From an uncultured Candidatus Saccharibacteria bacterium (lineage in GTDB: Bacteria; Patescibacteriota; Minisyncoccia; Phycocordibacterales; UBA9973): a DNA stretch of 64,000 nt. The stretch covers positions 18,829-82,828 of the forward strand of contig CAYVDC010000004.1 in the NCBI GenBank assembly GCA_964450735.1, given 5' to 3'. The translations under genes and the position numbers were made by a program. Below, in pieces: positions 2,951 to 63,985 of this stretch (positions are counted from its first letter, which is position 1; the number at the start of each line of letters is the position of its first letter). The notes beneath the pieces were generated by a model. It ran no database searches and had not been told where the DNA came from. It saw only the letters and a program-made list of their open reading frames with translations.

Positions 2951-3340
2951 CAGTGGAACTGGCGAGAATTGAACTCGCGTGCAAGAAGGAATGTAATATA
3001 GATCTACAAGCTTAGATCGTTTCAGGGTGTTTAAATACCGATGCTATGAAACAAACAAAATACAGCGGTATCGATTCTCAATTTATTTCAGGCTGTACGC
3101 GAGACGACGCACTTCCCTATCTCTAGATGTATGATATCCGATTTTCGCCTCTAGTGATCAACGAAGCGGATATCCAGATGTCGCGTTAAGCGAGGGCTGG
3201 AGCAAAATCTCCGAACGCAAAGTAAGGAGACTTTGTAAATGCAGTTTTTGCATTTGAGGTTTGCGCGATTATCACGAGATTCCGCACATACTCGGCATGC
3301 GTATACTACAAACGACTTCCTGTCGATGCCTGGCAGTCCC
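2951..3340 (-). ncRNA. ssrA: tmRNA (SsrA), CCA not encoded
   Basis: Minus-strand 5' end GGGACUGCCAGGCAUCGACAGG matches the tmRNA 5' acceptor plus the GGAUUCGACGGG motif. The 3' end has T-arm GCGAG-UUCAAUU-CUCGC, then CAGUUCC-A, which pairs with 5' GGGACUG (one G·U). Putative tag ORF runs from GCA (about nt 88) to ...GCU CCA GCC CUC GCU UAA (tag ends ...FAPALA). smpB is directly upstream on the same strand. Confidence 0.7.
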
Positions 3341-36470: not shown

Positions 36471-36815
36471 TTATTTCTTCTTATCAGCTGGAGCGGATTT
36501 TGCTGCCTGAGCTGCTGAGATTTCGGCCTCTTTCTTCTTTTGCTCAAGTTCTTTCTGCATCTTACCTCCGTGTTTGGTAAACTTGCGAGTCAAAGAGAAT
36601 TCTCCGAGTCTGTGTCCGACCATGTCTTCTGTAACTAGAACTTCTACGTGTATCTTGCCGTTGTGAACGCCGAAGATGAATCCCACCATTTCTGGTGCGA
36701 TCTGTGATGCGCGGGACCATGTCTTGATAACGCCAGTCTTTTGTGGCTCTTTGCCAGCAATTTTCTTGAGCAGGCGCTCATCGACATACATTCCCTTTTT
36801 GAGTGATCGTGTCAT
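36471..36815 (-). CDS. rpsS: 30S ribosomal protein S19 with a C-terminal extension
   Basis: [19 protein letters not shown]…[31 protein letters not shown]…. Confidence 0.9.
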
Positions 36816-37084
36816 GTATAGGGTTTCTCGAACGACCTTATAAAATAAGGCTATTCGGTTATTAAAGCAAGGAAAGTAATGGTATTCCTTGCCAAGTTAA
36901 CAATAATAATTTACTAGTTTCAAGCCCGAAATCCGGGTTTGAGACTAATTAAAAGGGCTCTTTCGAGGAGCCGATGGGGTCAGATTAGCAGGAAATGGGC
37001 TGAATGTCAAATATAACCTTGATTTTATTGACGAAAGAGCAGTTTATGGTAAGGTAAGAGGTATTTCCTCATTAAAACCTGAAT

Positions 37085-38623
37085 ATGGAACGATTAAAAA
37101 ACAAAGACCTCATCAAGAAAATTTTTGACAGAGGCATAGTTGGGACCAATTTCCTTAAACCTATCACCTTCAAATCGCGTATCCGTTCATGGATATATTG
37201 CGACTGGCGCAAAGCCTGCGGCCACCCCGATTTGATGGATGATATAAAAGAGGGGCTTGCAGAGATTGTAAGAACCGCTCCTATTACAGCTGATGCAGTA
37301 TTTGGAGTAGCAACCGGTGCTATTCCGCACGCCACGCTTCTTGCGCAGCACTTAAAGCTGCCATTTGGCTATGTGCGCCCTGATGCCAAAGCAAAAAATT
37401 ACGGCTTAGGCAAAAGAGTAGAAGGCACTGATGTAAAAGGCAAAGTAGTATTATTGGTAGAAGACTTAAACTCAACAGCAACCAGCATGATAGAAAATGC
37501 TGCTATCTTAAAAGAAGAAGGCGCTGCCGAAGTTATTCTGTTATCAATATTTACTTACAACCTGGCAGAAGCAAATGCAAATATTGAGAATTCCGGCTTA
37601 CGGTACTACTCATTACTGAGCATTAATGACTTATTGCCGTACTTGAAGGAACAATTGGATGTAGATCAATTTGTATCTGCAACTGATTGGATACAAGACC
37701 CACGCGCATGGTTTGATAAATACAAAACCACATTCAATTTTGGTTTTCTAACCACACTTCGTAAATCGGCAAAACAAGCCGGTAACATTGCGTGCATGGG
37801 CCTTGATCCTGTGCTGGAATCACTACCAAATGAATTCAGCTCGCAAGGGGTTCGGGGCATATACAGCTTTTACAAAGTTTTGTTTGAGGCAATGCGCACT
37901 GCAAATCTTTCGCCGGCGATGTTTAAGCCTAATGAAGGATTTTTCTCTTCACTCAATAATGGCTTCGAAGGAAGCTTTGTGGGAGACGAAACTTTGAGCA
38001 AGGTTAATGCGTTGGTAAGAGATATTTTCTTTGGCATTCCTCTTAATATAGATGCAAAGAGAGGCGACATTGGAAAATCATCAGATAATTACGCTAAAGA
38101 GTATTACTGTGGTTGGAAAACTGAAGCCATGACTATTCATACTTACATGGGCAAAGATTCAGTTATGCCTTTTGTTAAATACTGTTCAGCCGAAAAATGC
38201 TGCGGAGTATACGCATTAGACAGAACATCGAACCCCGGCGGTAATGATTTTCAAACACTGCTTATCGGCAATGAACCGCTTCATAGTATTGTTGGCGGAA
38301 AAATTATCGAATGGGGCACGGGCGCTTATGGTTTGGGAGCAGTAGTAGGAGCAACATCTATCGAAGAACTTTCTTTTTTAGCTAAAAAGTTTGCAGGTAA
38401 AGATGTTCCATTACTTGTTCCTGGCGTTGGCGATCAAGGCGGTAAAGCGCCTGATGTGATGCATGCGTTACATATGGCGAAGTACGAAATAGAGTTGGCG
38501 CGCATTAACAGCTCGTCAAAACTAACACACCCTTGGGGAACAAACGAGGCACCGAGTAACTGGCTTGAACTTTGTTTAAACAATATTAAACAGTTATGCC
38601 ACGAAACAAACATTGCGGCATAA
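37085..38623 (+). CDS. pyrEF: bifunctional orotate phosphoribosyltransferase / OMP decarboxylase (pyrE–pyrF fusion, type-2 OMPDC)
   Basis: N-terminal half has the PRTase type I PRPP loop VVLLVEDLNSTATSMIENAA and the OPRT flexible loop. C-terminal half has CMGLDP, NIDAKRGDIGKSSDNYAKEY and LLVPGVGDQGG, the three type-2 OMP decarboxylase signatures. Confidence 0.75.
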   Translation: MERLKNKDLIKKIFDRGIVGTNFLKPITFKSRIRSWIYCDWRKACGHPDLMDDIKEGLAEIVRTAPITADAVFGVATGAIPHATLLAQHLKLPFGYVRPDAKAKNYGLGKRVEGTDVKGKVVLLVEDLNSTATSMIENAAILKEEGAAEVILLSIFTYNLAEANANIENSGLRYYSLLSINDLLPYLKEQLDVDQFVSATDWIQDPRAWFDKYKTTFNFGFLTTLRKSAKQAGNIACMGLDPVLESLPNEFSSQGVRGIYSFYKVLFEAMRTANLSPAMFKPNEGFFSSLNNGFEGSFVGDETLSKVNALVRDIFFGIPLNIDAKRGDIGKSSDNYAKEYYCGWKTEAMTIHTYMGKDSVMPFVKYCSAEKCCGVYALDRTSNPGGNDFQTLLIGNEPLHSIVGGKIIEWGTGAYGLGAVVGATSIEELSFLAKKFAGKDVPLLVPGVGDQGGKAPDVMHALHMAKYEIELARINSSSKLTHPWGTNEAPSNWLELCLNNIKQLCHETNIAA

Positions 38624-38649
38624 ATAATGCCAAGATTAATTAAAAGAAC

Positions 38650-38686
38650 AGCGGGTCGAGATTAAAATCTCTTCCCGCTTTTTTAG
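38650..38686 (+). terminator. intrinsic terminator agcggg…cccgct + tttttt
   Basis: Seen directly after pyrEF. Confidence 0.55.
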
Positions 38687-38739
38687 TTGCCTTATTTCCC
38701 TTTTTATGGGATAAATGGCCAAACAAACGTACTCTACAC

Positions 38740-39738
38740 ATGAGAAAAATAACCTTTACCTACGGTGGCTTCAATAATGCCTTCCGTGTCATGCCAGGAG
38801 CTGGCATTGCAAAAACCATTGAGGATGTAAAAGCCTTGCTCAAAAACAAGGACATCACCATCATCGTATTTGGCTCTATTACAGTTTTGGGACGCAACGG
38901 AAACGACGGCAACCAAATGTACATAGATCCCAAAGGCGAGTTTACTGTTAACTCAGTTGGTATGACCAACCTCGGCAAAGAAAAGTACAAAACAGTACTC
39001 AGAGAAATTGTTGAGCTTGTTCACGAAGCTGGTAAAAAACTTGTGGTAAGCATCGCTGCTGTACAGTCATACAAAGAATACTCTGAACTGCTTCAGTTCT
39101 GCATCGAGTGCGGCGCAGACGGCGTTGAACTAAACTTCGGCTGTCCTAACGTTGTTGACGGTGGTACAAGTCACGCAATACCAAGCTTTGATCCGGAAAA
39201 CCTTCGCATTACGCTTGAGTACATTGAAAATGAGTTTGGCGGCACAGTGCCTATACCAGTATGGGTGAAAATTTCACCGCTCATACATGAACACACGATG
39301 GTTCGAACCGTCGCTTCTAGTAAACCTATCGAATACACATTTGCGCTTAACAAAGACTTGGCGAAAAAAGTTTGCGATGTACTGAACGGATTCAATTTCA
39401 TAAAAGCAGTAGTATGTTGCAACACTATCGGCAATGTATGCGCGCTTGATGAAACTGGAAAACCGATGATTGGGCCGAACAGCAACAATCCCAAAAATAC
39501 CGGCGGACTTTCAGGAAAAGCAGTGCATGCGATAAGTGTACGGCAAACCATGTTTTTTAGAGCAAACTTGAAACCAACCATTGATATTATTGGTGCAGGC
39601 GGCAATGAGACAGGCGAAGACATGGACGACTTTATTAGAGCAGGAGCTGCTGGAATTCAGGTAGTTTCTCCATACTATCGGAACAAAGATCCCTTCGTAT
39701 TCAGCAATATTGCATCTTTATACGTCTTACTTGATTAA
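38740..39738 (+). CDS. pyrD: dihydroorotate dehydrogenase, class 1 (catalytic Cys)
   Basis: LNFGCPNV (N.SCPN with Cys), GGLSGKAV, IIGAGGNETGEDMDDFIRAGAAGIQV match DHODH motifs. No pyrK nearby. Confidence 0.8.
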   Translation: MRKITFTYGGFNNAFRVMPGAGIAKTIEDVKALLKNKDITIIVFGSITVLGRNGNDGNQMYIDPKGEFTVNSVGMTNLGKEKYKTVLREIVELVHEAGKKLVVSIAAVQSYKEYSELLQFCIECGADGVELNFGCPNVVDGGTSHAIPSFDPENLRITLEYIENEFGGTVPIPVWVKISPLIHEHTMVRTVASSKPIEYTFALNKDLAKKVCDVLNGFNFIKAVVCCNTIGNVCALDETGKPMIGPNSNNPKNTGGLSGKAVHAISVRQTMFFRANLKPTIDIIGAGGNETGEDMDDFIRAGAAGIQVVSPYYRNKDPFVFSNIASLYVLLD

Positions 39739-39762
39739 CGAACTACTTACGTACGATATATT

Positions 39763-39792
39763 CGGCCTTCGGAAACGAAGGCCTTTTTTATT
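39763..39792 (+). terminator. intrinsic terminator ggccttcg-gaaa-cgaaggcc + tttttt
   Basis: Seen directly after pyrD. Confidence 0.7.
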
Positions 39793-39843
39793 GTCTTTTT
39801 TGATTTCCATGGTAATGTGTGAGCAACTAAATTCCATTAAAAC

Positions 39844-41070
39844 ATGAAACTGAACAACAACCAGCTGAAAAAAGTATTGGCATTTTTGCACAATATGGGC
39901 CTTACTGATGTAACCGAAGAAGACATACTACAAATAGTAGAGAATGACTTCGACGGCCATGCCCATGCACGCAAAGGCGCACAGACCAAAATCATCATTC
40001 CGCAAATGAAACAAGTTTCTGTTGCAGCATTTTATATGCCTAATGCAACCGTCAATGAAATTGGCGATAATGAAATCGGAATTACCTCCTACGAAAAATT
40101 GATGTGGTACCGCAATCATATTTTAGAAGAATGCGGCCCAAATTTTTTACCGCTCTTTTCTTTATACCTTTCAGAAAAACTTTCCGTGGCTGACATTGAA
40201 CGGGCATGGAAAGAAAAGCTGATTTCCGGTATCAAGTATTATCCAAAGGGTGCGACCACAGGCAGTGAAGGCGGCTCAAGCGGCTTTGCAAAACTGCGTG
40301 CACAATTGGAATGCATGAACGATCTTAAAATTACTTTTAACATGCATGGTGAAATACCCACTATCGACGGCATCAACCCCGTACCTGGCGGAGAACGCGA
40401 ACCTTTATTCTACCGAACCGAAGGTGAGGAATTACTGCAATGGTACACAGGACCAATTGTTGCTGAACATATCACAACATGGGAAGGCGTTGAGTTTACG
40501 AAGCGGTATGACAATGTAGTAGCTACGCTCACACCTCAACATTGCTTGCTTAGCAATATGGCAATCTTTCATAAAGTAAAAGCAAACAACGATTGGTATA
40601 ACTACGCCATAAAAATGGGTCTGTGCCCTAGCATGATATGCGCGCCAGTCCTAAAAGAACAAACGCAAGTTGCCGCCATATGGCAAGCACTTATTTGGCA
40701 GTATCGCCAAAAAAAGAAAAAGTTCTTCAAAGGTACTGACACTGCACATCACCCACCGCACGGAAAATACAAAGAAGAATGCGACTGCGGCGTGTACAAC
40801 TCACCGATACAGATGGAAATGTATTACATGCTGTTTAAATACCTCGACACATATTCGTGCAAAGGTATTATGGACGACTTTCAACGGTTTATGAGCGATA
40901 TTGGTATGGAGTTTTATGGGATTACCGGCAAGGTAACAAACAAAACCATAGCTATTGTACGTACGCCAAACAAAATCGAAGCCGAATACGGCGGAGCAGT
41001 GCCACCATTTGCTGGTGAAACGCTTCCTTGGAAGGCAATCGATATAACTGCCGCCTTGGCAGACGAATAA
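39844..41070 (+). CDS. pyrC: dihydroorotase, class II-like (amidohydrolase superfamily)
   Basis: DGHAHAR metal motif. IKYYPKGATTGSEGG resembles E. coli PyrC KLYPANATTNSSHG. GTDTAHHPPHGK resembles the LGTDSAPH… motif. Confidence 0.7.
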   Translation: MKLNNNQLKKVLAFLHNMGLTDVTEEDILQIVENDFDGHAHARKGAQTKIIIPQMKQVSVAAFYMPNATVNEIGDNEIGITSYEKLMWYRNHILEECGPNFLPLFSLYLSEKLSVADIERAWKEKLISGIKYYPKGATTGSEGGSSGFAKLRAQLECMNDLKITFNMHGEIPTIDGINPVPGGEREPLFYRTEGEELLQWYTGPIVAEHITTWEGVEFTKRYDNVVATLTPQHCLLSNMAIFHKVKANNDWYNYAIKMGLCPSMICAPVLKEQTQVAAIWQALIWQYRQKKKKFFKGTDTAHHPPHGKYKEECDCGVYNSPIQMEMYYMLFKYLDTYSCKGIMDDFQRFMSDIGMEFYGITGKVTNKTIAIVRTPNKIEAEYGGAVPPFAGETLPWKAIDITAALADE

Positions 41071-41094
41071 TTACAACACTAAAAAAACCTATGT

Positions 41095-41125
41095 CCCCGT
41101 TTCGAAAGAGACGGGGCTTTTTGTA
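41095..41125 (+). terminator. intrinsic terminator ccccgt…acgggg + cttttt
   Basis: Seen directly after pyrC. Confidence 0.6.
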
Positions 41126-41155
41126 CCAAAGCGTTTTTTCGTATATAGTGGAGCT

Positions 41156-41956
41156 ATGAAGATCGGCATATTTGATTCAGGCCTCGGAGGACTTTTCATC
41201 ATGAAAAGCATTGTTTCGAGCTTGCCACAATATGACTATATCTACCTCGGAGACACCTTACGCCTTCCCTACGGAGATCGCGACCAGGCCACCATCCAGA
41301 CGTTTCTTCGAAACGGAGTGGACTATCTGTTTAAACAAGGCTGCGTGCTCATCATAGTTGCCTGTAACACCGCCTCAGCAGAAGCTCTGCGTCAGATACA
41401 GCAAACATATCTCCCCGAATGCTATCCCGATCGCCGCGTACTCGGCGTGATCATCCCTGCAATCGAAGAAGCTATGCGCGGCGACCGAGTCGGCGTCCTT
41501 GGGACCATGGCCACAGTGAAGTCTCGTACCTACGAAAAAGAATTCAAAAAAAAGAGCAGCCATATTCGCGTCTTTCAACAAGCAGCGCCGCTTCTCGTTC
41601 CCATGATTGAAAACGGCGAATGGAACCTCATCGAGCCCGTACTGCGCGAATACTTGCAGCCGCTTTTGGAAAAAGATATCGACACACTCGTCCTCGGCTG
41701 TACGCACTACCCTATTTTGAAAAAAGAAATCCGCAATATCATCGGACCGGAGGTCCATCTCGTCTGTCAGGATGAATTCATCGACAAGAAACTTGAGGAC
41801 TACCTCAAACGTCATCCTGAGATCAGCGACAGACTTTCCTCAAACGGAACACGTGAATTTACAATTACAAAAACTAGCGAGCATTTTGAAAAGCTCGCCA
41901 AAGAATGGTTCAACAAAGACATCGAACTAAAAGTTATTGAGATTCCGGAGATCTAG
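41156..41956 (+). CDS. murI: glutamate racemase
   Basis: IGIFDSGLGGL, IVACNTAS, LGCTHYP match MurI motifs. Confidence 0.85.
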   Translation: MKIGIFDSGLGGLFIMKSIVSSLPQYDYIYLGDTLRLPYGDRDQATIQTFLRNGVDYLFKQGCVLIIVACNTASAEALRQIQQTYLPECYPDRRVLGVIIPAIEEAMRGDRVGVLGTMATVKSRTYEKEFKKKSSHIRVFQQAAPLLVPMIENGEWNLIEPVLREYLQPLLEKDIDTLVLGCTHYPILKKEIRNIIGPEVHLVCQDEFIDKKLEDYLKRHPEISDRLSSNGTREFTITKTSEHFEKLAKEWFNKDIELKVIEIPEI

Positions 41957-41972
41957 AAAATAAAATTACATC

Positions 41973-43136
41973 CTACTTTTCCACCTGCGCTTCATCGATA
42001 ATTCTTGAAGCCTCGCGCCCAAACGTAGTGACAATCTCTCGACAAGCGGCAACAAATTCCTTGTCTTCGAATAAACTCGTATCGATCTCCTGAGAACTGT
42101 CATTTTGACGATCATATTCTCCAAGAAAAGCTCCGTATGTTGAAAAAAGGTTTTCAATCTCTGCATTCATTTTTCCATACAGGTCAGCAAGCTTGGACTC
42201 CGACTGGGTCATTTTGATCTTTTGATCCTGTTTAAGCTTGGCGAACAAACCGCCAACGAACAGTTGAGACTCAGCAATAAGTCGAAACGTACTTTTGCCA
42301 CTGAATTCAGTGGGCCGTATTTCAAGACGGCAAATATTACGCGCCTGTTTCTTCATTTTCCTCGATTTCTGAGTACGCCCTGACTTTATGAGAACCGAGT
42401 TTGCTGTTTTGCGTTTTTTTATGCGATCAGCTGTGACAAATGCGTAGGTTAAAATATCGGTCACGCGTTGCACGTGGTTGCGTGTTTCCGAATCTTCAAA
42501 TGTTAATCCTTCTGGAACACCAAAATTAAGATGAAGGGAAAGTGAGCCAGGTATGATTTCTCTTTCTCCTGAAACAGGATTGTCTTGTGTCGGCAATATA
42601 TCAAGCATGCCAAGTTCTTGGAGGACTCGCGCCTGTGGTCCGGGACTATAAGAAAAGTTCGGATTAACTTCAAAAAGCATTTCTGATTCCTGATCAGTAT
42701 GTACGTCGAGAAGATCGAAAGTTTTTTTGTAATCAAGCAATTCTTCAGTTTCGGGTATTTCAACTTCGATGCCGATTGTAGGCAACGGATTGGTTTTGCT
42801 CATATACTTCTCTTCTTTCTCTGAGTAGTATCTCATCTCCGCATATTCATTCGCCAGATCCGTATCAGTGGCATGCGGATTCTGCTTAAGAAATGTAAAA
42901 AGATGCAACCGCGCCATAGGCATGACAGTCGGTTCAAGCTCTCTGAACATTCTGGTGAAATCGATTACTCGCTTGGCTAGACCTGAATATTCTTTTGATT
43001 TTGGGCTTTCGTTCGTTATCTCAGGCTCAAAGAGGCCTTCTTCTGGAGGTAAATCAAATCCATCATCGATGCCTTCATACGATTCTTCAGGTATTTGGGT
43101 TTTGGGCCTAGGGGCACCAATAAATCTCTCTTGCAT
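41973..43136 (-). CDS. hypothetical protein; weak resemblance to GCS2/YbdK-type carboxylate-amine ligases (amidoligase fold)
   Basis: TIGIEVEIPE (G.E.E), SLHLNFGVPEG (H.H), ICRLEIRPTEF (E.R) occur in the order seen in glutamine-synthetase-like GCS2 enzymes. Length 387 aa is close to YbdK. Low certainty. Confidence 0.35.
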   Translation of the reverse strand: MQERFIGAPRPKTQIPEESYEGIDDGFDLPPEEGLFEPEITNESPKSKEYSGLAKRVIDFTRMFRELEPTVMPMARLHLFTFLKQNPHATDTDLANEYAEMRYYSEKEEKYMSKTNPLPTIGIEVEIPETEELLDYKKTFDLLDVHTDQESEMLFEVNPNFSYSPGPQARVLQELGMLDILPTQDNPVSGEREIIPGSLSLHLNFGVPEGLTFEDSETRNHVQRVTDILTYAFVTADRIKKRKTANSVLIKSGRTQKSRKMKKQARNICRLEIRPTEFSGKSTFRLIAESQLFVGGLFAKLKQDQKIKMTQSESKLADLYGKMNAEIENLFSTYGAFLGEYDRQNDSSQEIDTSLFEDKEFVAACREIVTTFGREASRIIDEAQVEK

Positions 43137-43138
43137 AA

Positions 43139-43540
43139 TTATGAATGGAAATAGGAAATAAGCTTTGGGATGAAAATAATGCAGCCGATCACGATTGCCG
43201 CGATAGCTGAGAGTAACACTGCGCCAGCTGCGACGTCTTTGGTATCACGAGCGAATGGATGTTCCTCTGGACTGGTAAGATCAATATCAAATTCAATTGC
43301 GGTATTGAATGCTTCCGCGAGAATGACGATTGAAATAGCAAGCACGATTGCGAGCCACTCGCTTTGGGTTATCCGAAAAAAGAAACCGAGAAACACGGCA
43401 ACTGCCCCAGCTAGCAAATGGAGCCACATATTGTGCTGAGTTTTTAGTAATACAAAGATACCGCGTAGCGCATATTGGAAGCTCTTGCCTCGCTTTACCA
43501 CGCTGAATGCTTCAAGTTCTTTGGCTGGTTCATCAAACAT
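43139..43540 (-). CDS. dgkA: prokaryotic diacylglycerol kinase / undecaprenol kinase family (DgkA)
   Basis: Three TM helices and signature LAEAFNTAIEFDID (A.E..N.AIE…D). Confidence 0.7.
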   Translation of the reverse strand: MFDEPAKELEAFSVVKRGKSFQYALRGIFVLLKTQHNMWLHLLAGAVAVFLGFFFRITQSEWLAIVLAISIVILAEAFNTAIEFDIDLTSPEEHPFARDTKDVAAGAVLLSAIAAIVIGCIIFIPKLISYFHS

Positions 43541-43612
43541 AGGGTAAGTATAGCAGAGTATGCGAAAGGGGGAAATTGATACCTTAGATCTCTTTGGTGT
43601 ACAATTTTGAGT

Positions 43613-43650
43613 AGAAAAAATGCCCCGCGTGTAGGCAGGGCATTTAAATA
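43613..43650 (-). terminator. intrinsic terminator aaatgccc…gggcattt + T-run on the minus strand
   Basis: Seen directly downstream of the 43665–44135 gene. Confidence 0.6.
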
Positions 43651-43664
43651 AAAATCTTATACGA

Positions 43665-44135
43665 TTAGGATGTTTTTTGTGATGGATGATGTAGGTATCT
43701 CAGAAGTTTTTGCTCAAATGCGCTAAATTTCTGTGTTTTTTTCTTAGCTGCTTTTCTAGGCTTATTGTGCATAATTTGAACAATCATGTATATGGTATAT
43801 ATAAATATCAGTGCGCCGATAATAGACGCCCATGATAAATAAGGAACCCATTCAACACGGTACATTAGAATCAAGCATGCCGGAATAGTTGTGAGCGTAA
43901 GCATGCTCGCAACAAAAGCAGAAACCTCCTGATCAAGGAATATCCGAGCAAGATTGTACACGCAAACACACATACCAAACGATAATCCGAGTAAAACAAA
44001 AAAACCTTCAATACCCTGCAAGTAACGGGGGTACTGAAAGAGCGTGTACTCATCGAGCGGCAGCAATCTGCCTGCAAAGAAATTCATGCAAAAAGTAATA
44101 CCAAGAGCGGCGGAGAGGGTAACGGTTTTCTTCAT
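43665..44135 (-). CDS. hypothetical polytopic membrane protein (156 aa)
   Basis: Four hydrophobic helices. Own promoter (TTCAAA-N16-TACAAT at 44168–44194 on minus) and own terminator. Confidence 0.45.
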   Translation of the reverse strand: MKKTVTLSAALGITFCMNFFAGRLLPLDEYTLFQYPRYLQGIEGFFVLLGLSFGMCVCVYNLARIFLDQEVSAFVASMLTLTTIPACLILMYRVEWVPYLSWASIIGALIFIYTIYMIVQIMHNKPRKAAKKKTQKFSAFEQKLLRYLHHPSQKTS

Positions 44136-44167
44136 AAGTGTTTTTTCTTTTAAAGTGTGTACGAATG

Positions 44168-44194
44168 ATTGTAACTAGAGTACACCTGATTTGA
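44168..44194 (-). promoter_or_regulatory. sigma70-like promoter TTCAAA-N16-TACAAT for the 43665–44135 gene
   Basis: Seen directly, about 35 nt upstream of the ATG. Confidence 0.3.
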
Positions 44195-44312
44195 ACAAAA
44201 GTCGAGAGCTAAAATTTCTACTACAATCGTAACTAATGTTACATAAACATTTGTTACTGAGTGGCTGCACGCGCCTGATCGCTGAGTTTTAAAAGTATCA
44301 CGCGGCGCGCGG

Positions 44313-44360
44313 TGATGCCCCTTCCGGGGCATCAAAAAACCACGCTTGCAGGCGTGGTTG
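44313..44360 (-). terminator. rplB terminator: aaccacgc-ctgcaa-gcgtggtt + tttttt, followed by a second hairpin gatgcccc-ggaa-ggggcatc
   Basis: Seen directly downstream of rplB on the minus strand. Confidence 0.65.
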
Positions 44361-44389
44361 ATTGAAAATTTCTCTCTTTGTTTGTGTGA

Positions 44390-45238
44390 TTAAGATTCCT
44401 TTCGCTTCTTGCCAGTGACGCGGCGTGAGACGATGAATGGGTTTGAGTATTTCTTTGGAGTACGAGTCTTTCGTCCACCAGTAACTTTACCCCACATTGT
44501 CTTCGGTCGTCGCAATCCACGGCCTTGTCGTCCTTCACCTCCACCGTATGGGTGGTCAACAGGGTTCATAACCGAACCACGAACAGTTGGGCGAATACCC
44601 TTCCATCGTGAGCGTCCAGCTTTACCGTAGTTTCGAAGTTTGTTCTCGTCGTTTGATACTTCACCGATTGTAGCCCAGCAAAGCTCAGAAACTTTTCGAA
44701 CTTCAGATGATGGCATCTTCAAGTTTGTATATCCATCAGCGTTCGCGACAACTTGTACGAATGTTCCAGCGCCACGTGAGAGTTTTGCTCCACCGTTTTG
44801 CTTGAGTTCGACGTTGTAGACAAACATACCGACTGGGATGTACTTGAGCGGAAGTCGGTTTCCCGGCTTGAGAGCTGCCTTTTCAGAAACGATGAATTCG
44901 TCTCCGACGCGAGTCGTCTTTGAGGCGATCACGTAGCGCTTCTCTCCGTCAGCATACACTGCGAGAGCAATGAAGGCTGTTCGGTTTGGATCGTATTCAA
45001 CAGAAGCGATCTTGGCTGGGATTTCTTTCTTGTTGTACAAGAAATCGATCTCGCGGTAGACACGCTTGTTACCACCTCCCTTGTGTCGAGTAGTGATACG
45101 GCCCTGGTTGTTGCGTCCAACTGAACGCTTGGTTCCCTTGGTGAGAGCCTTTTCAACTTTGTGGCCGGAAAGCTTTTCCTTGTAGTTAACTGTCTGAAGC
45201 TGGCGTCGTGACGCGCTTGTAGGTTTATAGGTTTTCAT
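44390..45238 (-). CDS. rplB: 50S ribosomal protein L2
   Basis: …SVMNPVDHPYGGGEGR… L2 signature. Confidence 0.9.
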   Translation of the reverse strand: MKTYKPTSASRRQLQTVNYKEKLSGHKVEKALTKGTKRSVGRNNQGRITTRHKGGGNKRVYREIDFLYNKKEIPAKIASVEYDPNRTAFIALAVYADGEKRYVIASKTTRVGDEFIVSEKAALKPGNRLPLKYIPVGMFVYNVELKQNGGAKLSRGAGTFVQVVANADGYTNLKMPSSEVRKVSELCWATIGEVSNDENKLRNYGKAGRSRWKGIRPTVRGSVMNPVDHPYGGGEGRQGRGLRRPKTMWGKVTGGRKTRTPKKYSNPFIVSRRVTGKKRKES

Positions 45239-56708: not shown

Positions 56709-59700
56709 CTACGGCAATACTGTAAAACTCTTGCCCATTGTATTGTTTGTCTCATTTGATTCATCAACCATTCTAAACGCATATGGCCCAAAATCATCGA
56801 CAGTGGCAGTAAGGTCTATTGTGCGTGCAGTAGCAAGAATATTCGGTACAGAGTTTTGGTATACGGTCATGACATATGTCTGTCCGGGCTGAAGTGTTAC
56901 TGGAGTCAAAAGCTGACGTGCTCCATACGACACACCGCTACTTGAAACACTGAACTGAGTTCCCTGAGGAAGAACTGCAGCAGCTACAGTACTGATATTT
57001 TTTACGGTGATAGTGAATTGAAAGTTAGGGTTTGGATTAGGAGTCGGAGCAGTCAAAGGATTGATTGCCGTCACTCGTGGGAGTTGAGGAGCCCAAGTGA
57101 AACTGTCTACGATCAAATCGGGTTTAGCAGCCGAAGCAGGGATTGATGCACTTGGTGAACAATACTCCCAAGTATCTTTCAAATTCACATTGATGTTATT
57201 GTGGTAGCCATTATAACCGGTCATCATATATCCTTTAGTGCTAGTTGCGAGGGCAACTGGCATATATCTTTCAGGTCCACCAATATCTGCTTTTTGGCTC
57301 CATGTATTCGTTGCTGGGTTATATTCCCAGAAGTCAGCAAGAAATGTATTGCTAATAGTATTACCTCCTCCTATATACCCCTGCCCACCTAAGGAGAAGC
57401 CTCCAGCTCCAGCTCGAGCAACTCCACCAATATCTGCTTTTTGGCTCCATGTATTCGTTGCTGGGTTATATTCCCAGAAATCTTTAGTGCTATTGCTGAC
57501 ACTTAGACCACTTCCAATATATCCTTTTGATCCAATTGAAAAACCCGTAGCTTCATATCTTACAGTTCCTCCAAAGTTTGCCTTTTGAGCCCATGTATTC
57601 GTTGCAGGATTATATTCCCAGAAATCACGGCTCTGTCCACTATTTCCAAGTCCAGTACCAGCATAGCCCTTAGTACCGACCGAAAAGCCGACGCCACTTA
57701 CTCTCTCCAAACCACCGAAATCTGCTTTCTGAGTCCATGTGTTTGTTGCTGGATCATATTCCCAGAAATCTTTTTTTGATCCACCTGAAGCAGATTCTTG
57801 TCCTGTTCCCACATACCCTTTGTTACCGATTGAAAAGCCGAATGAAAATCTTGAGGTTCGTGGGAAATCTGCTTTTTGTGTCCAAGTATTCGTTGCTGGG
57901 TTATATTCCCAGAAATCTTTCATGAATGTTCCGTATGCTTCGCCTGTACCAACATAGAGCTTATCATCGATAGAAAAACCGACTGCTCCATATCTTTCAG
58001 TTCCAGGGAAATTTGCCTTCTGTGTCCAAATACTTAAAGCACATACCGAAGGAGCCCTTGGAATTGTGTTTATTACAACAGGGCCAGGTGGATTTACCGG
58101 CGGAGGCATAATAATAGTTACTGGCTTAACAATGACTGAATGATAGATTCTTCCAGTCCATGGAACCGAGCTTGCTGCTTGAGTCCAATTGATACCGTCT
58201 GATGTCACCCATTCATCTGAAGCTGCAGAAAAACCAGCAAAACCTCCTACTATCCATAGTTTGCCAGCATACACAACCATCTGGTGCGCGCTGCGAAGCC
58301 CCCAACCGGAAGTTGTTGTTACTCGAGACCAGTGTGCGCCGTCAGAAGATACAATAACATCCTGAGAATTTCCACCGCTTCCAAAACCTCCAGACATATA
58401 TATTTTTCCGTTAAACACCGCAGTACCCGCTTTTGAACGTGCGAGTAACGGAACCCCCGAGGCAGCCTGAGTCCAAGTACTGCCGTTAGTAGAATACCAA
58501 GCATCATCAACTTGCATGCTCATACAACCGCCCTGCCAAGTCGGACCGATACCGGTACAACTGAAGCCAGAAACAACCCACATCTTATTATCAAAAACAA
58601 ATGTAGAAGCCCCAGCACGCTCCTTCCATGGAGCTTTTGCTGTCACATTCGTCCAATTTATTCCGTCTGGGCTAGACCAAACATCATTGTAGTAAGTTGC
58701 AGTTATTGTAGGTTGGTTATTGGTATTGTAACCTCCCATAACCCAAAGTTTATTTTGATACACAACAACGGAATGATCGCCTCGAGCCGACCAAGGAGCA
58801 TTTGCTGTTACCTGGGTCCAAGTCACGCCGTCAACAGAACTCCAAACGTCATTTTTGTAATTGTAGCCTTGCTGTGGATGATCTTTCCCACCAATAACCC
58901 AGAGTTTATTATTGAAATAAACTGCTTGCTGCTTAGTTCGATTTCCCCATTGTGCAGCTGCTTGGATTTGAGTCCAATTTATTCCGTCACCTGAAGACCA
59001 CACATCTTTAAAAGCCTGTGACGTACCTGAGGATGATATTGAATTATAATTGTTGTCACCAGCAAGCAAAAATATTTTTTCTTGAATACCTGCCGCGCCC
59101 CCTGTTGGCCCTTGTGCTGGAATAGAGCCACCGTTTAATCGTGCCAGTGCTTCCTGAGTCTTTGGACCGATATTCATTCCATCGCCACTGATTCCATTTT
59201 GTTGTTGAAAGCGAATGATCGCACCCTTGGTTCCATTACCGTAATAGCCCGTCGCTTCTCCTGAAAGGAGGCCGGTTGAAATGAGATATTCCTGAATTTT
59301 TTGAATATCGGTGCTAGTTTCGCCAAAATTTAAAGTTCGGGAAATAGTAATCGGTGAAACCGCCTGAACAGTAGCAGTGGGAACTATACTTGTTGTTGAT
59401 ACTGCAGGAAGTTCTGTACGCCCATTCAATACCGCTGAATTTAATGTAGTAACTGGAAGCGTGCCAGCTGGAATGACTTTTACTGAAGCTTGGGCTTCGG
59501 TCATAGTAGAATAAGTCGCAGGATCTACCTTGTTTGCAGACACTGCTGTCGCACGGTTAACGACCGCTCCGAGTTCCGTACGCAGTTCTACAACTTGCTG
59601 TCGAAGACTAAGTACTTCATTCCACAGATCATCAAGTGGTGAGGCGTGAGCAAACGATACCGACCCAAGAAATGCAATTGCCAGGAGCAATCCAACTATG

Positions 59701-59729
59701 TATTTTTTCATATAAGAAAAGTATCCCAT
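56709..59729 (-). CDS. large secreted protein (1006 aa): signal peptide, PG_binding_1 domain, two arrays of Kelch/beta-propeller-like repeats, C-terminal beta-sandwich
   Basis: N-terminal KKYIVGLLLAIAFLGSVSFAHA. …IQKIQEYLISTGLLSGEATGYYGNGTKGAIIRFQ… is PG-binding. Repeats …WSS.DGINWTQ…KLWV.GG… and …FWEYNPATNTW.QKADFGG…GFS.G.KGY.GTG…. Confidence 0.75.
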   Translation of the reverse strand: MGYFSYMKKYIVGLLLAIAFLGSVSFAHASPLDDLWNEVLSLRQQVVELRTELGAVVNRATAVSANKVDPATYSTMTEAQASVKVIPAGTLPVTTLNSAVLNGRTELPAVSTTSIVPTATVQAVSPITISRTLNFGETSTDIQKIQEYLISTGLLSGEATGYYGNGTKGAIIRFQQQNGISGDGMNIGPKTQEALARLNGGSIPAQGPTGGAAGIQEKIFLLAGDNNYNSISSSGTSQAFKDVWSSGDGINWTQIQAAAQWGNRTKQQAVYFNNKLWVIGGKDHPQQGYNYKNDVWSSVDGVTWTQVTANAPWSARGDHSVVVYQNKLWVMGGYNTNNQPTITATYYNDVWSSPDGINWTNVTAKAPWKERAGASTFVFDNKMWVVSGFSCTGIGPTWQGGCMSMQVDDAWYSTNGSTWTQAASGVPLLARSKAGTAVFNGKIYMSGGFGSGGNSQDVIVSSDGAHWSRVTTTSGWGLRSAHQMVVYAGKLWIVGGFAGFSAASDEWVTSDGINWTQAASSVPWTGRIYHSVIVKPVTIIMPPPVNPPGPVVINTIPRAPSVCALSIWTQKANFPGTERYGAVGFSIDDKLYVGTGEAYGTFMKDFWEYNPATNTWTQKADFPRTSRFSFGFSIGNKGYVGTGQESASGGSKKDFWEYDPATNTWTQKADFGGLERVSGVGFSVGTKGYAGTGLGNSGQSRDFWEYNPATNTWAQKANFGGTVRYEATGFSIGSKGYIGSGLSVSNSTKDFWEYNPATNTWSQKADIGGVARAGAGGFSLGGQGYIGGGNTISNTFLADFWEYNPATNTWSQKADIGGPERYMPVALATSTKGYMMTGYNGYHNNINVNLKDTWEYCSPSASIPASAAKPDLIVDSFTWAPQLPRVTAINPLTAPTPNPNPNFQFTITVKNISTVAAAVLPQGTQFSVSSSGVSYGARQLLTPVTLQPGQTYVMTVYQNSVPNILATARTIDLTATVDDFGPYAFRMVDESNETNNTMGKSFTVLP

Positions 59730-62002: not shown

Positions 62003-63985
62003 CTATTGTCTAATTGAATATGAACCAGTTGGAAAATTATAGATCAACTGACCTCCCAAGTTAGTACCGCTGCCAGTAGCAGAAATGTTGTCGCCAACAA
62101 ATGTTGCTGTTGCAGTATCATCCCAATTAAATCCATATTGATTTAATGAAGTGGATACCATTCCTGCTCCGTTAGATGTACCAGTCAAAGTAGCATACAG
62201 ATTAAATGTTTTTGAGGTACCTGCCGATATGGTGTAGCCATCAAAATCCATGTTTGATTCGGTATTAAAGCTAGTATTGCCTGAAGACATAGTATTTCCT
62301 GTCGTTGCGAATTCACAGAAAATTGAGTCTGTAACATCAGAAATTCCACAGCTGCTTCCTAATACTGTATTCGCACCATCAGCGATTCGAAGGTTTGACA
62401 TTGTCAGTGAGCTGAAATTTGCAAGACCATAGATAAATGCGAGATCGTTTATCTTGATGTTTCCTTTAACATCCGCGGTGATAGTGACTTGGCCAATTTT
62501 ATTTTCAGCACCGACTAGTAAGCCGTTAACTACTGTACTATTTACAGTAACAGTGGGCTTTGATCCAACCAATGTCATTGTTGGAGCAAAAACTGTAGGA
62601 GTAATTATAGTAGTAGCACCTCCACAAGTGTATTTTGCATACGTAAGAGCAATCGATGATGTTCTATTAGAAGGAATTCCACTTATTCCAACTGAAGAAT
62701 ACGAAACATATACATCGATAAATACGCCCGAGTTAACAACTGGAATATTAAGACCTGTTAGCCAAGCAACCCCGCTAACTACAGGTGCAGTAACATTACC
62801 AACCTTAACACTTGTTATGGTACTGAGACCGTTCTCAGTAAACTTCAGTTCTGTAATAACCGGAGATCCGCCTGTGGGACTGACAAACAATGTCATTCTA
62901 GTTCCATCGACTGCCCCTGTATTACCTGCCGCAACATATTGTGCCTGAGTTGAATTACCACCTATAGTAGGAGTAAAAATGCCGCAGGCCTGCTGAACAG
63001 GTGCATTAATCGTAAACAAATTATCTGATGCATCAGTTGCAGCACCAACAATTGTTATCTTGTAGTTCAAACCATATACCATCTGTCCCCAAGTTGAGGT
63101 TGAAGGTAATGTAACTACCTGTGATCCATCATTAAGTGTGTGTGTAAGATTCACTCCCTGGTTAATACCAGGCATAGTCAAGAAAATATCAACATATGCT
63201 GATGAAGGAATGCTACATGTTTTCCAAGTAACAGTGATCTGCTGACCAGCTGTGTATATTTCTCCTCCATCTGGAGAAGTTACTTTTAGTTTAGGAGCTG
63301 CGTTTGGATTGAACTGGCAAACCCATCCTATCTGAGCAACTTGAATGTTTGCGCCGCATGGCTGTCCATTGATTGGGCTGAATCCATTAAATGAAGTGCA
63401 GCCGGGTGGCAAGATGCTTGATGCAGGAGTTCCAGTTCCTGTTGGGATCTGAGCCTGTGCACTTGCGCCGCCATTGAGAAGAAGTTGTGTCTTGGGACCA
63501 ACTACTGTTCCGTCATCATTGATGCCATTTGCTCGCTGGAGAGCCATCACTGCAGCTGCAGTAACCTTTCCATAGAGACCAGTAGCATTGTCAGACGCAA
63601 GGTATCCTTTTGAAACAAGAACATCCTGGAGTTTTTTAACTTCAGGTCCCTTCTCACCAATAGTAAGACTGTGAGAAAAAGAAATTCCTGGCGTTGGTTG
63701 TGTGCTGATTGTGGATCCTGAAGTTCCAGGATTAGTGCTAGGACATGGGCCTGTGCCACCGTTAGGGTTGCTACATGGTCCAGTATCGAAAACTGGCCAT
63801 TGATTAGGGGTTACACTTGAGTTCGTATTAAGTTTAGTGCTAGGACATGGGCCTGTGCCACCGTTAGGGTTGCTACATGGTCCAGTATCGAAAACTGGCC
63901 ATTGATTAGGGGTAGTATCTACTGTATTTATACTTGCCTTTGAAACATTTAGGCTAGCTCCCGATTTTAAAACAGCAGCACCCAA
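62003..63985 (-). CDS. secreted protein with PG_binding_1 domain and beta-rich C-terminal region; 5' end may lie beyond the listed start (near window end)
   Basis: …LTIGEKGPEVKKLQDVLVSKGYLASDNATGLYGKVTAAAVMALQ… is PG-binding. N-terminal tandem duplicated TPNQWPVFDTGPCSNPNGGTGPCPST units. Confidence 0.6.
   Translation of the reverse strand: MGAAVLKSGASLNVSKASINTVDTTPNQWPVFDTGPCSNPNGGTGPCPSTKLNTNSSVTPNQWPVFDTGPCSNPNGGTGPCPSTNPGTSGSTISTQPTPGISFSHSLTIGEKGPEVKKLQDVLVSKGYLASDNATGLYGKVTAAAVMALQRANGINDDGTVVGPKTQLLLNGGASAQAQIPTGTGTPASSILPPGCTSFNGFSPINGQPCGANIQVAQIGWVCQFNPNAAPKLKVTSPDGGEIYTAGQQITVTWKTCSIPSSAYVDIFLTMPGINQGVNLTHTLNDGSQVVTLPSTSTWGQMVYGLNYKITIVGAATDASDNLFTINAPVQQACGIFTPTIGGNSTQAQYVAAGNTGAVDGTRMTLFVSPTGGSPVITELKFTENGLSTITSVKVGNVTAPVVSGVAWLTGLNIPVVNSGVFIDVYVSYSSVGISGIPSNRTSSIALTYAKYTCGGATTIITPTVFAPTMTLVGSKPTVTVNSTVVNGLLVGAENKIGQVTITADVKGNIKINDLAFIYGLANFSSLTMSNLRIADGANTVLGSSCGISDVTDSIFCEFATTGNTMSSGNTSFNTESNMDFDGYTISAGTSKTFNLYATLTGTSNGAGMVSTSLNQYGFNWDDTATATFVGDNISATGSGTNLGGQLIYNFPTGSYSIRQ
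63735..63910. repeat. in-frame tandem duplication (2 x about 76 bp identical, about 100 bp period) inside the 62003–63985 gene
   Basis: Seen directly: 63735–63810 is identical to 63835–63910. Confidence 0.8.

What the first reader, a model, noticed from the sequence alone, without database searches (positions are those of the whole stretch)
37085..38623. Bacterial pyrE–pyrF fusion with eukaryote-like domain order (OPRT–OMPDC) and a type-2 OMP decarboxylase
A single 512-aa ORF carries both enzymes. The PRTase PRPP-binding loop (VVLLVEDLNSTATS) and the OPRT N-domain are followed by MGLDP, DAKRGDIG…YA and PGVG.QGG, the hallmark motifs of the long type-2 OMP decarboxylase. Fusion of these two enzymes is the UMP-synthase arrangement of eukaryotes. 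In bacteria the two are normally separate genes.
Basis: partly seen in the sequence, partly recalled or inferred. Interest (0 to 1): 0.6.

Follow-up and report, generated by a model that had tools for sequence, protein, structure and literature searches.

The report
Linker-less bacterial UMP synthase (PyrE–PyrF fusion)
A candidate-phyla-radiation bacterium encodes the last two enzymes of UMP synthesis as one tightly joined protein in the same order as animal and plant UMP synthase; this is a real, conserved and independently evolved fusion, but a modest addition to a well-known case of recurrent gene fusion.

Summary
Window 37085..38623 (+) is one uninterrupted 512-aa ORF with an N-terminal orotate phosphoribosyltransferase (OPRT) and a C-terminal type-2 OMP decarboxylase (TIGR02127, 133.6 bits, cutoff 110.6). 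It is not an artefact. An independent assembly is 100% identical across the junction. About 45 clusters (39-86% identity) share the collinear architecture in different genomic contexts. dN/dS is about 0.12-0.15 in both halves and in the junction. The host is a Patescibacteria (CPR) bacterium. The fusion is convergent with eukaryotic UMPS, not derived from it. Both halves are closest to bacterial standalone enzymes, and an SR1 genome keeps adjacent separate pyrE and pyrF. The join is about 6 conserved residues of invariant length, and AlphaFold gives pTM 0.89, suggesting a rigid two-domain unit. The order is not unique to this lineage. An independent OPRT-OMPDC family exists in Alkalispirochaeta, and PyrC-E-F and PyrD-E-F triple fusions also turned up. 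All are labelled only 'OMP decarboxylase' in databases. Papers I could search name only the reverse order in bacteria. Verdict: real bifunctional UMP synthase, a new variant of a known kind, of modest interest. In passing: the pyr cluster interrupts the S10 ribosomal operon between rplB and rpsS.

The parts
37085..38623 (+). pyrEF: single 512-aa ORF encoding the fused OPRT-OMPDC (putative bifunctional UMP synthase)
37085..37720 (+). OPRT (PyrE) domain, aa 1-212. It includes flexible-loop R98/K102/K104 (K104 codon 37394-37396) and the PRPP motif E126-D127 (37460-37465, VEDLNSTATS).
   Evidence: PF00156. TIGR00336 91.8 bits; 3dez/2aee E about 1e-27. R98, K104, E126 and D127 invariant. TM 0.85-0.90 to Bacillus and Streptococcus OPRT.
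37697..37780 (+). Junction, aa 205-232: the PyrE C-terminal tail (DW..DP..WF..YK), about 6 fusion-specific residues (TTFNFG; family consensus TEFDFG), then the PyrF N-terminus (FLTTLRKSA). It has no flexible linker and its length is invariant in the family.
   Evidence: W209, F210, G220, T223, R226 invariant; comparison with termini of standalone PyrE and PyrF; junction length +/-1 residue in 45 members; omega 0.115; pLDDT 93-98 here
37730..38620 (+). Type-2 OMP decarboxylase (PyrF) domain, aa 216-512. It includes D241 (MGLDP), K281 (FKPN), D323-K325-D328 (DAKRGD, 38051-38068), the phosphate-gripper PGVGDQGG (aa 446-453, 38420-38443) and R473.
   Evidence: TIGR02127 133.6 bits, above the 110.6 cutoff; these residues are invariant or at least 90% conserved; chain coordinates of 3nqd map D323/K325/D328 to D70/K72/D75. 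TM 0.78-0.86 to type-2 OMPDC structures.
36816..37084 (.). Divergent intergenic region between rpsS (-) and pyrEF (+). It is about 85% conserved in the relative L006 and contains hairpins at about 36914-36948 and 36956-36972. The presumed promoter or leader region is uncharacterised.
38740..39738 (+). pyrD-like class-1 dihydroorotate dehydrogenase (332 aa, NFGCPNV active-site Cys motif). It is probably co-transcribed with pyrEF. A terminator-like hairpin follows at 39764-39783.
   Evidence: PF01180 114 bits; best NCBIfam models are below their cutoffs; terminator-like hairpin.
39844..41070 (+). pyrC-like dihydroorotase (408 aa, E. coli-type 'pyrC_dimer' relative). A terminator-like hairpin follows at 41095-41116.
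   Evidence: TIGR00856 170.8 bits, below the 292.95 cutoff, aligned over 34-397; terminator-like hairpin.
36471..36815 (-). rpsS (S19), the left flank of the roughly 7.5-kb interruption of the S10 operon that holds the pyr cluster
44390..45238 (-). rplB (L2), the right flank of the interruption

Best explanation
The ORF encodes a bifunctional UMP synthase. The N-terminal OPRT domain converts orotate and PRPP to OMP and PPi, and the C-terminal type-2 OMPDC domain decarboxylates OMP to UMP. It arose within Patescibacteria by in-frame fusion of an adjacent pyrE-pyrF gene pair, with loss of the pyrE stop codon and the short spacer. This event was independent of both the eukaryotic UMPS fusion and the cyanobacterial/kinetoplastid PyrF-PyrE fusion. 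The two domains are joined by a conserved segment of fixed length, about 6 residues, packed between helices, so the protein is probably a rigid two-domain unit. Because both parent enzymes are obligate homodimers with shared active sites, the fused protein must still pair both domains, as a dimer or a higher oligomer. The likely benefit is 1:1 co-expression, mutual stabilisation and one gene fewer in a reduced genome. With the adjacent pyrD- and pyrC-like genes it would carry carbamoyl-aspartate, dihydroorotate or orotate through to UMP. Shown here: the architecture, the domain family assignments, conservation of catalytic residues, purifying selection, family-wide conservation and independent origin. 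Inferred: both enzyme activities, the oligomeric state, the rigidity and the selective advantage.
For: Domain identities come, and fold matches (pLDDT 92.4, pTM 0.89; the only low-confidence stretch, 104-106, is the known mobile catalytic loop of OPRT). Catalytic residues are invariant across 38 fused homologs: OPRT R98, K104, E126 and D127; OMPDC D241, K281, D323, K325, D328, P446-G447-x-G449-x-Q451-G452, with R473 at 90% or more. Purifying selection acts on each part against the 86%-identical relative: omega 0.148 for OPRT, 0.115 for the junction and 0.125 for OMPDC. The fused gene occurs in unrelated neighbourhoods on long contigs, including a 569-kb Falkowbacteria contig. A pre-fusion-like state is seen in SR1, where pyrE ends in TAA, a 53-nt spacer with aaaggag follows, and pyrF begins in another frame. 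Standalone PyrE C-termini and PyrF N-termini abut exactly at the fused junction. In NJ trees all 45 fused OMPDC domains fall in one clade with two standalone PyrF, and the fused OPRT domains cluster with about a dozen standalone PyrE. The window holds no other pyrE or pyrF copy, so the fused gene is the only source of these activities in the 64 kb examined.
Against: No activity has been measured. The OPRT half scores below NCBIfam's curated equivalog cutoffs (TIGR00336 91.8 against 106.8; NF001729 86 against 245). This particular protein and its closest relative depart from near-invariant family residues in the orotate-binding loop (FKSGIKSP becomes FKSRIRSW: G32R, P36W) and in the PRPP phosphate loop (STGGS becomes STATS). 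NJ bootstrap support for exact monophyly of the fused family is weak (0/100 exact; 35/100 within two taxa), so a single origin is likely but not proven, and secondary fission is possible. No pyrB or carAB was seen in the window, so pathway completeness is unknown.
Confidence: 0.85

Rival explanations
1. The N-terminal PRTase-like domain is not a working OPRT in this lineage. It could be a regulatory or scaffolding domain, or a phosphoribosyltransferase with altered base specificity, leaving the protein effectively a decorated OMP decarboxylase.
For: The OPRT-specific NCBIfam models are below their curated cutoffs. The G32R and P36W substitutions lie in the loop whose backbone binds orotate in solved OPRTs, and Gly is replaced by Ala and Thr in the PRPP loop of this member and P0002. 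OPRT-like proteins that act as regulators are known (NF002620 and the GfcR models appear in the hit lists).
Against: All best sequence and fold matches are genuine OPRTs. The catalytic-loop Lys and the acidic PRPP pair are invariant. The domain is under purifying selection (omega 0.148). No other pyrE is found in the window, although pyrC, pyrD and pyrF functions are clustered with it.
Confidence: 0.1
2. The fusion is an assembly, sequencing or gene-calling artefact that joins two adjacent genes.
For: The window comes from a metagenome-derived genome, and adjacent separate pyrE-pyrF genes do exist in a related lineage (SR1).
Against: An independent assembler gives the identical sequence. Forty-five collinear homologs come from many samples and sources, with no indel at the junction. 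The junction is conserved and under purifying selection.
Confidence: 0.01
3. The gene is a horizontally acquired eukaryotic UMPS, that is, a true orthologue of animal and plant UMP synthase.
For: It has the same domain order as eukaryotic UMPS, and the human OPRT domain (2wns) is a detectable homolog (E 2.5e-15).
Against: The OMPDC half is type 2 and gives no PDB sequence hit at E<=0.01 to human or yeast UMPS-type OMPDC domains. The OPRT half is much closer to Firmicute-type bacterial PyrE (1e-27). The nearest relatives of both halves are standalone prokaryotic proteins. Base composition is not anomalous.
Confidence: 0.01

Closest known systems
Eukaryotic UMP synthase (UMPS; animals, plants, Amoebozoa, Naegleria, Euglena): OPRT-OMPDC
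   Same: It combines the same two activities in the same N-to-C order in one polypeptide, and the total length is similar (about 480-520 aa).
   Different: From established knowledge of TIGR01740 versus TIGR02127, the eukaryotic C-domain is the short or classical OMPDC type. Here it is type 2, with no detectable PDB sequence match to human or yeast OMPDC. The join here is about 6 conserved residues rather than a flexible linker. The origin is independent and the host is bacterial. I did not check whether some protist OPRT-OMPDC proteins carry a type-2 domain.
Bifunctional PyrF/PyrE of cyanobacteria, Chloroflexi/Anaerolineae, kinetoplastids, diatoms and oomycetes (NCBIfam NF004034/PRK05500; Leishmania UMPS, PDB 3qw4)
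   Same: It is a fusion of a type-2 OMPDC with OPRT, and 3qw4 is the best PDB sequence hit (E 2e-34). Bacterial members exist.
   Different: The domain order is opposite (OMPDC first). The inter-domain gap is 21-125 residues in 112 such proteins, against a fixed short junction here. The NF004034 score is 121.9 against a cutoff of 656. Foldseek superposes only one domain at a time (TMq 0.43-0.44).
Alkalispirochaeta OPRT-OMPDC fusion family (P0128, P0391-P0400)
   Same: It is bacterial, has the same order and carries a type-2 OMPDC (TIGR02127 180.5 bits). It is also annotated only as OMP decarboxylase.
   Different: The fusion event is independent. Its OMPDC domain is nearest to standalone Spirochaeta PyrF, and in no bootstrap replicate do the two fused families approach an exclusive clade (0/50 for either domain tree). 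Its linker is long, variable and Pro/Ala-rich (19-113 residues).
Standalone PyrE plus PyrF encoded by adjacent genes (e.g. SR1 bacterium JAPLUV010000027.1, locus L001)
   Same: The gene order is the same, and tblastn identity is 48% in the best segment, with the match spanning query residues 6-507. The termini of the separate proteins correspond exactly to the fused junction.
   Different: They are two ORFs in different frames, separated by a TAA stop and a 53-nt spacer with its own Shine-Dalgarno sequence.

Membership tests
Type-2 OMP decarboxylase (TIGR02127 pyrF_sub2) | Profile score above the curated whole-protein cutoff | tested here: met
   133.6 bits against a cutoff of 110.6, aa 221-468 matching model positions 1-238 of 261
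Type-2 OMP decarboxylase (TIGR02127 pyrF_sub2) | Catalytic Asp/Lys array (Lys of the KPN motif plus DxKxxD) and the phosphate-gripper PGxGxQGG with a downstream Arg | tested here: met
   D241, K281, D323, K325, D328, P446, G447, G449, Q451 and G452 are invariant, and R473 is at least 90% conserved. The coordinates (3nqd 63-192 matching query 316-458) place D323/K325/D328 on D70/K72/D75 and Q451 on Q185.
Type-2 OMP decarboxylase (TIGR02127 pyrF_sub2) | TIM-barrel OMPDC fold | tested here: met
   a confident model, with TM 0.78-0.86 (normalised to target) to Toxoplasma, Leishmania and Anaerococcus OMPDC
Type-2 OMP decarboxylase (TIGR02127 pyrF_sub2) | OMP decarboxylase activity | not testable with these tools
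   Needs an enzyme assay or complementation of a pyrF mutant
Orotate phosphoribosyltransferase (PyrE) | Type-I PRTase domain with the PRPP-binding acidic pair and loop | tested here: met
   PF00156 58.1 bits against 26.3. E126-D127 invariant. This member has STATS where the family has STGGS.
Orotate phosphoribosyltransferase (PyrE) | Score above curated PyrE equivalog cutoffs | tested here: not met
   TIGR00336 91.8 bits against 106.8; NF001729 86.4 against 245. The domain is divergent, although every top hit is an OPRT.
Orotate phosphoribosyltransferase (PyrE) | Flexible catalytic loop with a conserved Arg and Lys (Salmonella R99/K103 equivalents) | tested here: met
   R98 and K104 invariant; the loop 104-106 is the only low-pLDDT segment, as expected for a mobile loop.
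Orotate phosphoribosyltransferase (PyrE) | Orotate-binding N-terminal loop (KSGxKSPxY-type) | tested here: inconclusive
   the family consensus is FKSGIKSPIYCDFR, but the window protein and P0002 have FKSRIRSWIYCDWR (G32R, P36W). The effect on orotate binding is unknown.
Orotate phosphoribosyltransferase (PyrE) | OPRT fold | tested here: met
   TM 0.85-0.90 (normalised to target), rmsd about 2 A, to B. anthracis, S. pyogenes and S. mutans OPRT
Eukaryotic UMPS (OPRT-OMPDC) | Domain order OPRT then OMPDC in one chain | tested here: met
Eukaryotic UMPS (OPRT-OMPDC) | Common descent with eukaryotic UMPS (both halves nearest to UMPS domains; classical-type OMPDC) | tested here: not met
   the C-half is type 2, and TIGR01740 gives only 18.1 bits; no human or yeast OMPDC hit; the nearest relatives are prokaryotic standalone enzymes.
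Bacterial bifunctional PyrF/PyrE (NF004034, PRK05500) | Score above the curated cutoff, and OMPDC-OPRT order | tested here: not met
   121.9 bits against a cutoff of 656, matched as two stretches; the best one puts query aa 221-427 on model positions 3-192, so the query's C-terminal half aligns to the model's N-terminal OMPDC part.

The most novel reading that the evidence does not exclude
The fixed-length, conserved junction locks OPRT and OMPDC into one geometry. That geometry would force a distinctive assembly (a closed tetramer or a filament, since both domains must still homodimerise) and bring the two active sites close enough to hand over OMP directly. In these reduced CPR genomes the pyrC-pyrD-pyrEF module would then serve as a scavenging route, turning host- or community-derived carbamoyl-aspartate, dihydroorotate or orotate into UMP without carAB or pyrB.
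Probability: 0.15. Interest if true: 0.5.

Novelty: new variant of a known kind. Interest (0 to 1): 0.3.

Why it matters
It adds a bacterial case of the animal/plant domain order, here with a type-2 decarboxylase, to the classic example of recurrent OPRT/OMPDC fusion. At least two bacterial lineages reached that order independently (Patescibacteria with essentially no linker, Alkalispirochaeta with a long one), and triple fusions also exist. This is useful for three reasons. First, these proteins are currently labelled only 'orotidine-5'-phosphate decarboxylase', which hides the OPRT activity in metabolic reconstructions of CPR genomes, where nucleotide synthesis capacity is a debated trait. 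Second, the pre-fusion state (SR1) and the fused state are both available, giving a natural experiment on how gene fusions form. Third, the linker-less protein may be a compact, crystallisable model for how two obligate-dimer enzymes are combined in one chain. It does not change any concept.

Tried and rejected
- In-frame UGA recoding (code 25) in the SR1 locus as a hidden fusion: rejected. The pyrE stop is TAA and pyrF is in another frame.
- The racemase-family gene next to pyrC as a pathway-related hydantoin or carbamoyl-aspartate racemase: rejected. It is glutamate racemase MurI (TIGR00067, 200 bits against a cutoff of 146.65).
- carB or pyrB among the large ORFs and by motif: none found. 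The 1,006-, 914- and 1,913-aa ORFs are Kelch/PG-binding, unknown or Ig-like surface proteins.
- Rfam at gathering threshold over the whole window: only the tmRNA, with no known pyrimidine leader or riboswitch upstream of pyrEF.
- Sigma-70 promoter scan of 36700-41300: no site upstream of pyrEF and fewer sites than in shuffles, so uninformative.
- Literature searches for a bacterial OPRT-OMPDC order or for CPR pyrimidine synthesis: nothing found. The primary paper, Makiuchi et al. 2007, is not in the library and was seen only through citing papers.
- The first bootstrap attempt with Biopython NJ timed out and was redone with numpy. NJ on about 200-280 columns does not resolve a single versus multiple origin within Patescibacteria.
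Full report
OBSERVATION. Pfam finds a phosphoribosyltransferase domain (aa 47-156) and an OMPdecase domain (aa 318-458), both above gathering scores. NCBIfam places aa 221-468 in TIGR02127 'pyrF_sub2', the type-2 OMP decarboxylase, at 133.6 bits against a curated cutoff of 110.6. It places aa 28-183 in TIGR00336 'pyrE' at 91.8 bits, below the 106.8 cutoff. Against solved structures, the N-half matches Streptococcus and Bacillus OPRTs (E about 1e-27). The C-half matches type-2 OMPDCs of Leishmania, Toxoplasma, Anaerococcus, Streptomyces and Plasmodium. The only bifunctional hit is Leishmania UMPS, with the two halves in swapped order.

ARTEFACT CHECK. A Logan assembly contig from run SRR12404947 is 100% identical to window 36762-41731, so it spans the whole gene. 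A database search returned about 40 cluster representatives of 508-524 aa with 39-86% identity and roughly 98% coverage, all carrying both Pfam domains and drawn from NCBI, JGI, ENA and Logan sources. Thirty-eight of them align through the junction without gaps. The fused gene sits in unrelated neighbourhoods on long contigs, including a 569-kb Falkowbacteria contig. Against the 86%-identical relative from GCA_013558375.1, Nei-Gojobori dN/dS is 0.148 for the OPRT part, 0.115 for the junction and 0.125 for the OMPDC part. An assembly or frameshift artefact is excluded for practical purposes.

HOST. The window has a bacterial tmRNA and an EF-G/EF-Tu/S10 ribosomal gene region. Its L2 protein is closest to named Pacebacteria, Nomurabacteria and Paceibacterota sequences at 72-78% identity. 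Named members of the fused family are Falkowbacteria and 'Patescibacteria group'. The host is therefore a Patescibacteria (CPR) bacterium.

ANATOMY. Catalytic residues of both enzymes are invariant across the 38 aligned fusions. In OPRT these are R98 and K104 of the mobile loop and E126-D127 of the PRPP motif. In OMPDC they are D241, K281, D323-K325-D328 and the PGxGxQGG phosphate gripper, with R473 at least 90% conserved. The chain coordinates of the M. thermautotrophicus enzyme hit put D323/K325/D328 on the well-studied D70/K72/D75 and Q451 on Q185.

The junction was resolved by aligning standalone relatives. Standalone PyrE proteins end at '...DW..DPEGW(F)..HK', and standalone type-2 PyrF proteins start at 'M-N-Y-L-x-x-L-R-x-S-A'. 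The fused proteins read '...DPEGWFDRHK-TEFDFG-FLTxLRxSA...'. Only about six residues are fusion-specific, and they are conserved (F217, F219 and G220 are near-invariant or invariant). The junction length varies by at most one residue in 45 members.

AlphaFold2 with the family alignment gives mean pLDDT 92.4 and pTM 0.89. The only low-confidence stretch is residues 104-106, the OPRT catalytic loop. The high pTM suggests a fixed inter-domain orientation; this is an inference, because I could not inspect coordinates. Foldseek confirms each fold separately: TM 0.85-0.90 to OPRTs and 0.78-0.86 to type-2 OMPDCs. No solved chain covers both domains in this arrangement (best query-normalised TM 0.48).

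ORIGIN. An SR1 bacterium carries pyrE and pyrF as adjacent separate genes in the same order. pyrE ends in TAA, a 53-nt AT-rich spacer with 'aaaggag' follows, and pyrF starts in a different frame. This is what a pre-fusion state should look like.

In an exhaustive profile search of 1.84 billion 50%-identity representatives, only five clusters match end to end in one stretch, so the family is small. With separate half-profiles I classified the fetched proteins:
- 45 compact OPRT-OMPDC fusions;
- 112 reverse-order OMPDC-OPRT fusions, whose named members are Anaerolineae/Chloroflexi and are often labelled 'uridine monophosphate synthetase' by JGI;
- 11 long-linker OPRT-OMPDC proteins whose named members are Alkalispirochaeta;
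- a PyrC-OPRT-OMPDC triple fusion (P0142);
- a PyrD-OPRT-OMPDC triple fusion (P0415).

In neighbour-joining trees the 45 compact fusions fall in one OMPDC clade together with two standalone PyrF. Their OPRT domains cluster with about a dozen standalone PyrE. Bootstrap support for exact monophyly is weak, so one origin with occasional fission, or a few closely spaced origins, cannot be told apart.

The Alkalispirochaeta family is clearly separate. Its OMPDC domain is nearest to standalone Spirochaeta PyrF (distance about 0.5, against at least 1.09 to the CPR fusions), and in no bootstrap replicate did the two fused families come within five taxa of forming an exclusive clade (0/50 for either domain).

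The relationship to eukaryotic UMPS is convergent. The C-half gives no PDB sequence hit to human or yeast OMPDC at E<=0.01, TIGR01740 scores only 18 bits, and the OPRT half is much closer to Firmicute-type PyrE than to the human OPRT domain.

MECHANISM. The best-supported reading is a bifunctional UMP synthase: orotate and PRPP give OMP at the N-domain, and OMP gives UMP and CO2 at the C-domain. From established knowledge of both families, each is an obligate homodimer whose active site borrows residues from the partner: the OPRT loop with K104, and the OMPDC Asp equivalent to D75. The fused chain must therefore still pair both domains, as Leishmania and human UMPS do. Whether this gives a closed dimer, a tetramer or an open polymer is not determinable here.

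The adjacent genes are a class-1 dihydroorotate dehydrogenase homolog (38740..39738) and an E. coli-type dihydroorotase homolog (39844..41070). Terminator-like hairpins follow pyrD and pyrC but not pyrEF, which suggests a pyrEF-pyrD transcript. No second pyrE or pyrF, and no pyrB or carB, was found in the 64 kb. Whether the organism makes pyrimidines de novo or scavenges intermediates remains open.

CAVEATS. This member and its closest relative differ from near-invariant family residues in the orotate-binding loop (G32R, P36W) and have STATS instead of STGGS in the PRPP loop. In addition, the OPRT half is below NCBIfam's equivalog cutoffs. I therefore keep a 10% rival in which the N-domain is not a normal OPRT.

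COMPARISON WITH WHAT IS KNOWN. Papers I could read give OPRT-OMPDC for plants, metazoa, Euglena and Naegleria. [quoted passage not shown] 2007 for multiple independent fusions, including eukaryote-versus-bacteria parallelism. NCBIfam has a curated model only for the reverse-order bacterial enzyme (NF004034). I found no report of the OPRT-first order in bacteria or of such a fusion in CPR. I rate it a new variant of a known kind: the order is that of eukaryotes, the decarboxylase class is that of the reverse-order fusions, and there is no linker. Interest is 0.3. It is a tidy, well-supported example and an annotation fix, not a conceptual surprise.

SIDE OBSERVATIONS.
- The pyr cluster lies in a roughly 7.5-kb interruption of the S10 ribosomal operon between rplB and rpsS. 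The relative shares the interruption, but its cargo differs beyond pyrEF.
- The two relatives show strongly mosaic divergence within the fused gene.
- Tandem OPRT-OPRT proteins with complementary loss of catalytic motifs turned up among the profile hits.

Noticed in passing
window 36471-45238: The S10 ribosomal operon (EF-Tu, S10, L3, L4, L23, L2 | S19, L22, S3, L16..., all on the - strand) is interrupted between rplB and rpsS, normally one of the most conserved adjacencies in bacteria. The roughly 7.5-kb insert holds a small membrane protein, a diacylglycerol kinase and a 387-aa unknown on the - strand, and pyrEF, pyrD, pyrC and murI on the + strand. The 86%-identical relative (L006) has the same interruption with pyrEF next to rpsS. 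So the interruption is real, and the site looks like a variable cargo spot.
   Followed up: partly
window 41156-41956 vs L006 7878-10355: At the same position in the insert, the window carries glutamate racemase MurI (TIGR00067, 200 bits, above cutoff). The relative instead carries an 825-aa MurL_N/MurL_epimerase/Mur-ligase fusion. These look like two alternative routes to D-glutamate in peptidoglycan, swapped at one locus. The relative also lacks pyrD and pyrC there.
   Followed up: no
window 37085-38620 vs L006 5546-7081: Divergence inside the fused gene is mosaic. Nt 150-600 are 95-99% identical (third positions 0.88-0.98), nt 676-1200 only 65-72% (third positions 0.38-0.56), and nt 1200-1500 87-90%. 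dS is 0.25 in the OPRT half against 1.17 in the OMPDC half. This suggests homologous recombination or allele replacement within the gene.
   Followed up: partly
proteins P0163, P0165, P0183, P0186, P0206, P0217, P0224, P0234, P0239, P0250: These are tandem OPRT-OPRT single-chain proteins (433-701 aa) with complementary degeneration. In most of the ten, half 1 keeps the catalytic flexible loop but has lost the PRPP-motif Glu and the Gly-rich loop, while half 2 keeps EDLxSTGxS but has a degraded flexible loop. Because the OPRT loop serves the partner subunit's site, this looks like a pseudo-heterodimer with a single composite active site. The taxon is unknown.
   Followed up: partly
proteins P0142 (1079 aa) and P0415 (859 aa): These are triple fusions ending in the same OPRT-then-type-2-OMPDC order. 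P0142 is dihydroorotase-OPRT-OMPDC with low-complexity Thr/Pro/Glu linkers. P0415 is DHO dehydrogenase (PF01180)-OPRT-OMPDC with essentially no linker between the last two domains. The source organisms are unknown.
   Followed up: partly
proteins P0128, P0391-P0400: This is a second, independent bacterial OPRT-OMPDC(type 2) fusion family in Alkalispirochaeta (528-627 aa) with a variable Pro/Ala-rich linker. It is annotated only as OMP decarboxylase or 'HUMPS family protein'.
   Followed up: yes
window 36914-36972 (intergenic rpsS / pyrEF): Two hairpins lie in the divergent intergenic region. The first is a 13-bp stem at about 36914-36948 that pairs fully only as + strand RNA (two G-U pairs); in the relative its middle is replaced by a different sequence that can still pair at its ends. 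The second is a conserved GGCTC...GAGCC hairpin with a T-run on the - strand (36972-36956), about 140 nt upstream of rpsS, which could be a leader or attenuator for the severed downstream half of the S10 operon. Rfam gave no hit.
   Followed up: no
window 8773-14514, 56709-59729, 62003-63985 (all -): Several very large predicted surface or cell-wall-associated proteins carry PG_binding_1 domains combined with Ig-like/filamin (1,913 aa) or Kelch beta-propeller repeats (1,006 aa). ORFs of 914, 589 and 504 aa have no Pfam match.
   Followed up: no
window 2951-3340 (-): A tmRNA gene (115 bits) has a long predicted tag peptide, AQTSNAKTAFTKSPYFAFGDFAPALA.
   Followed up: no
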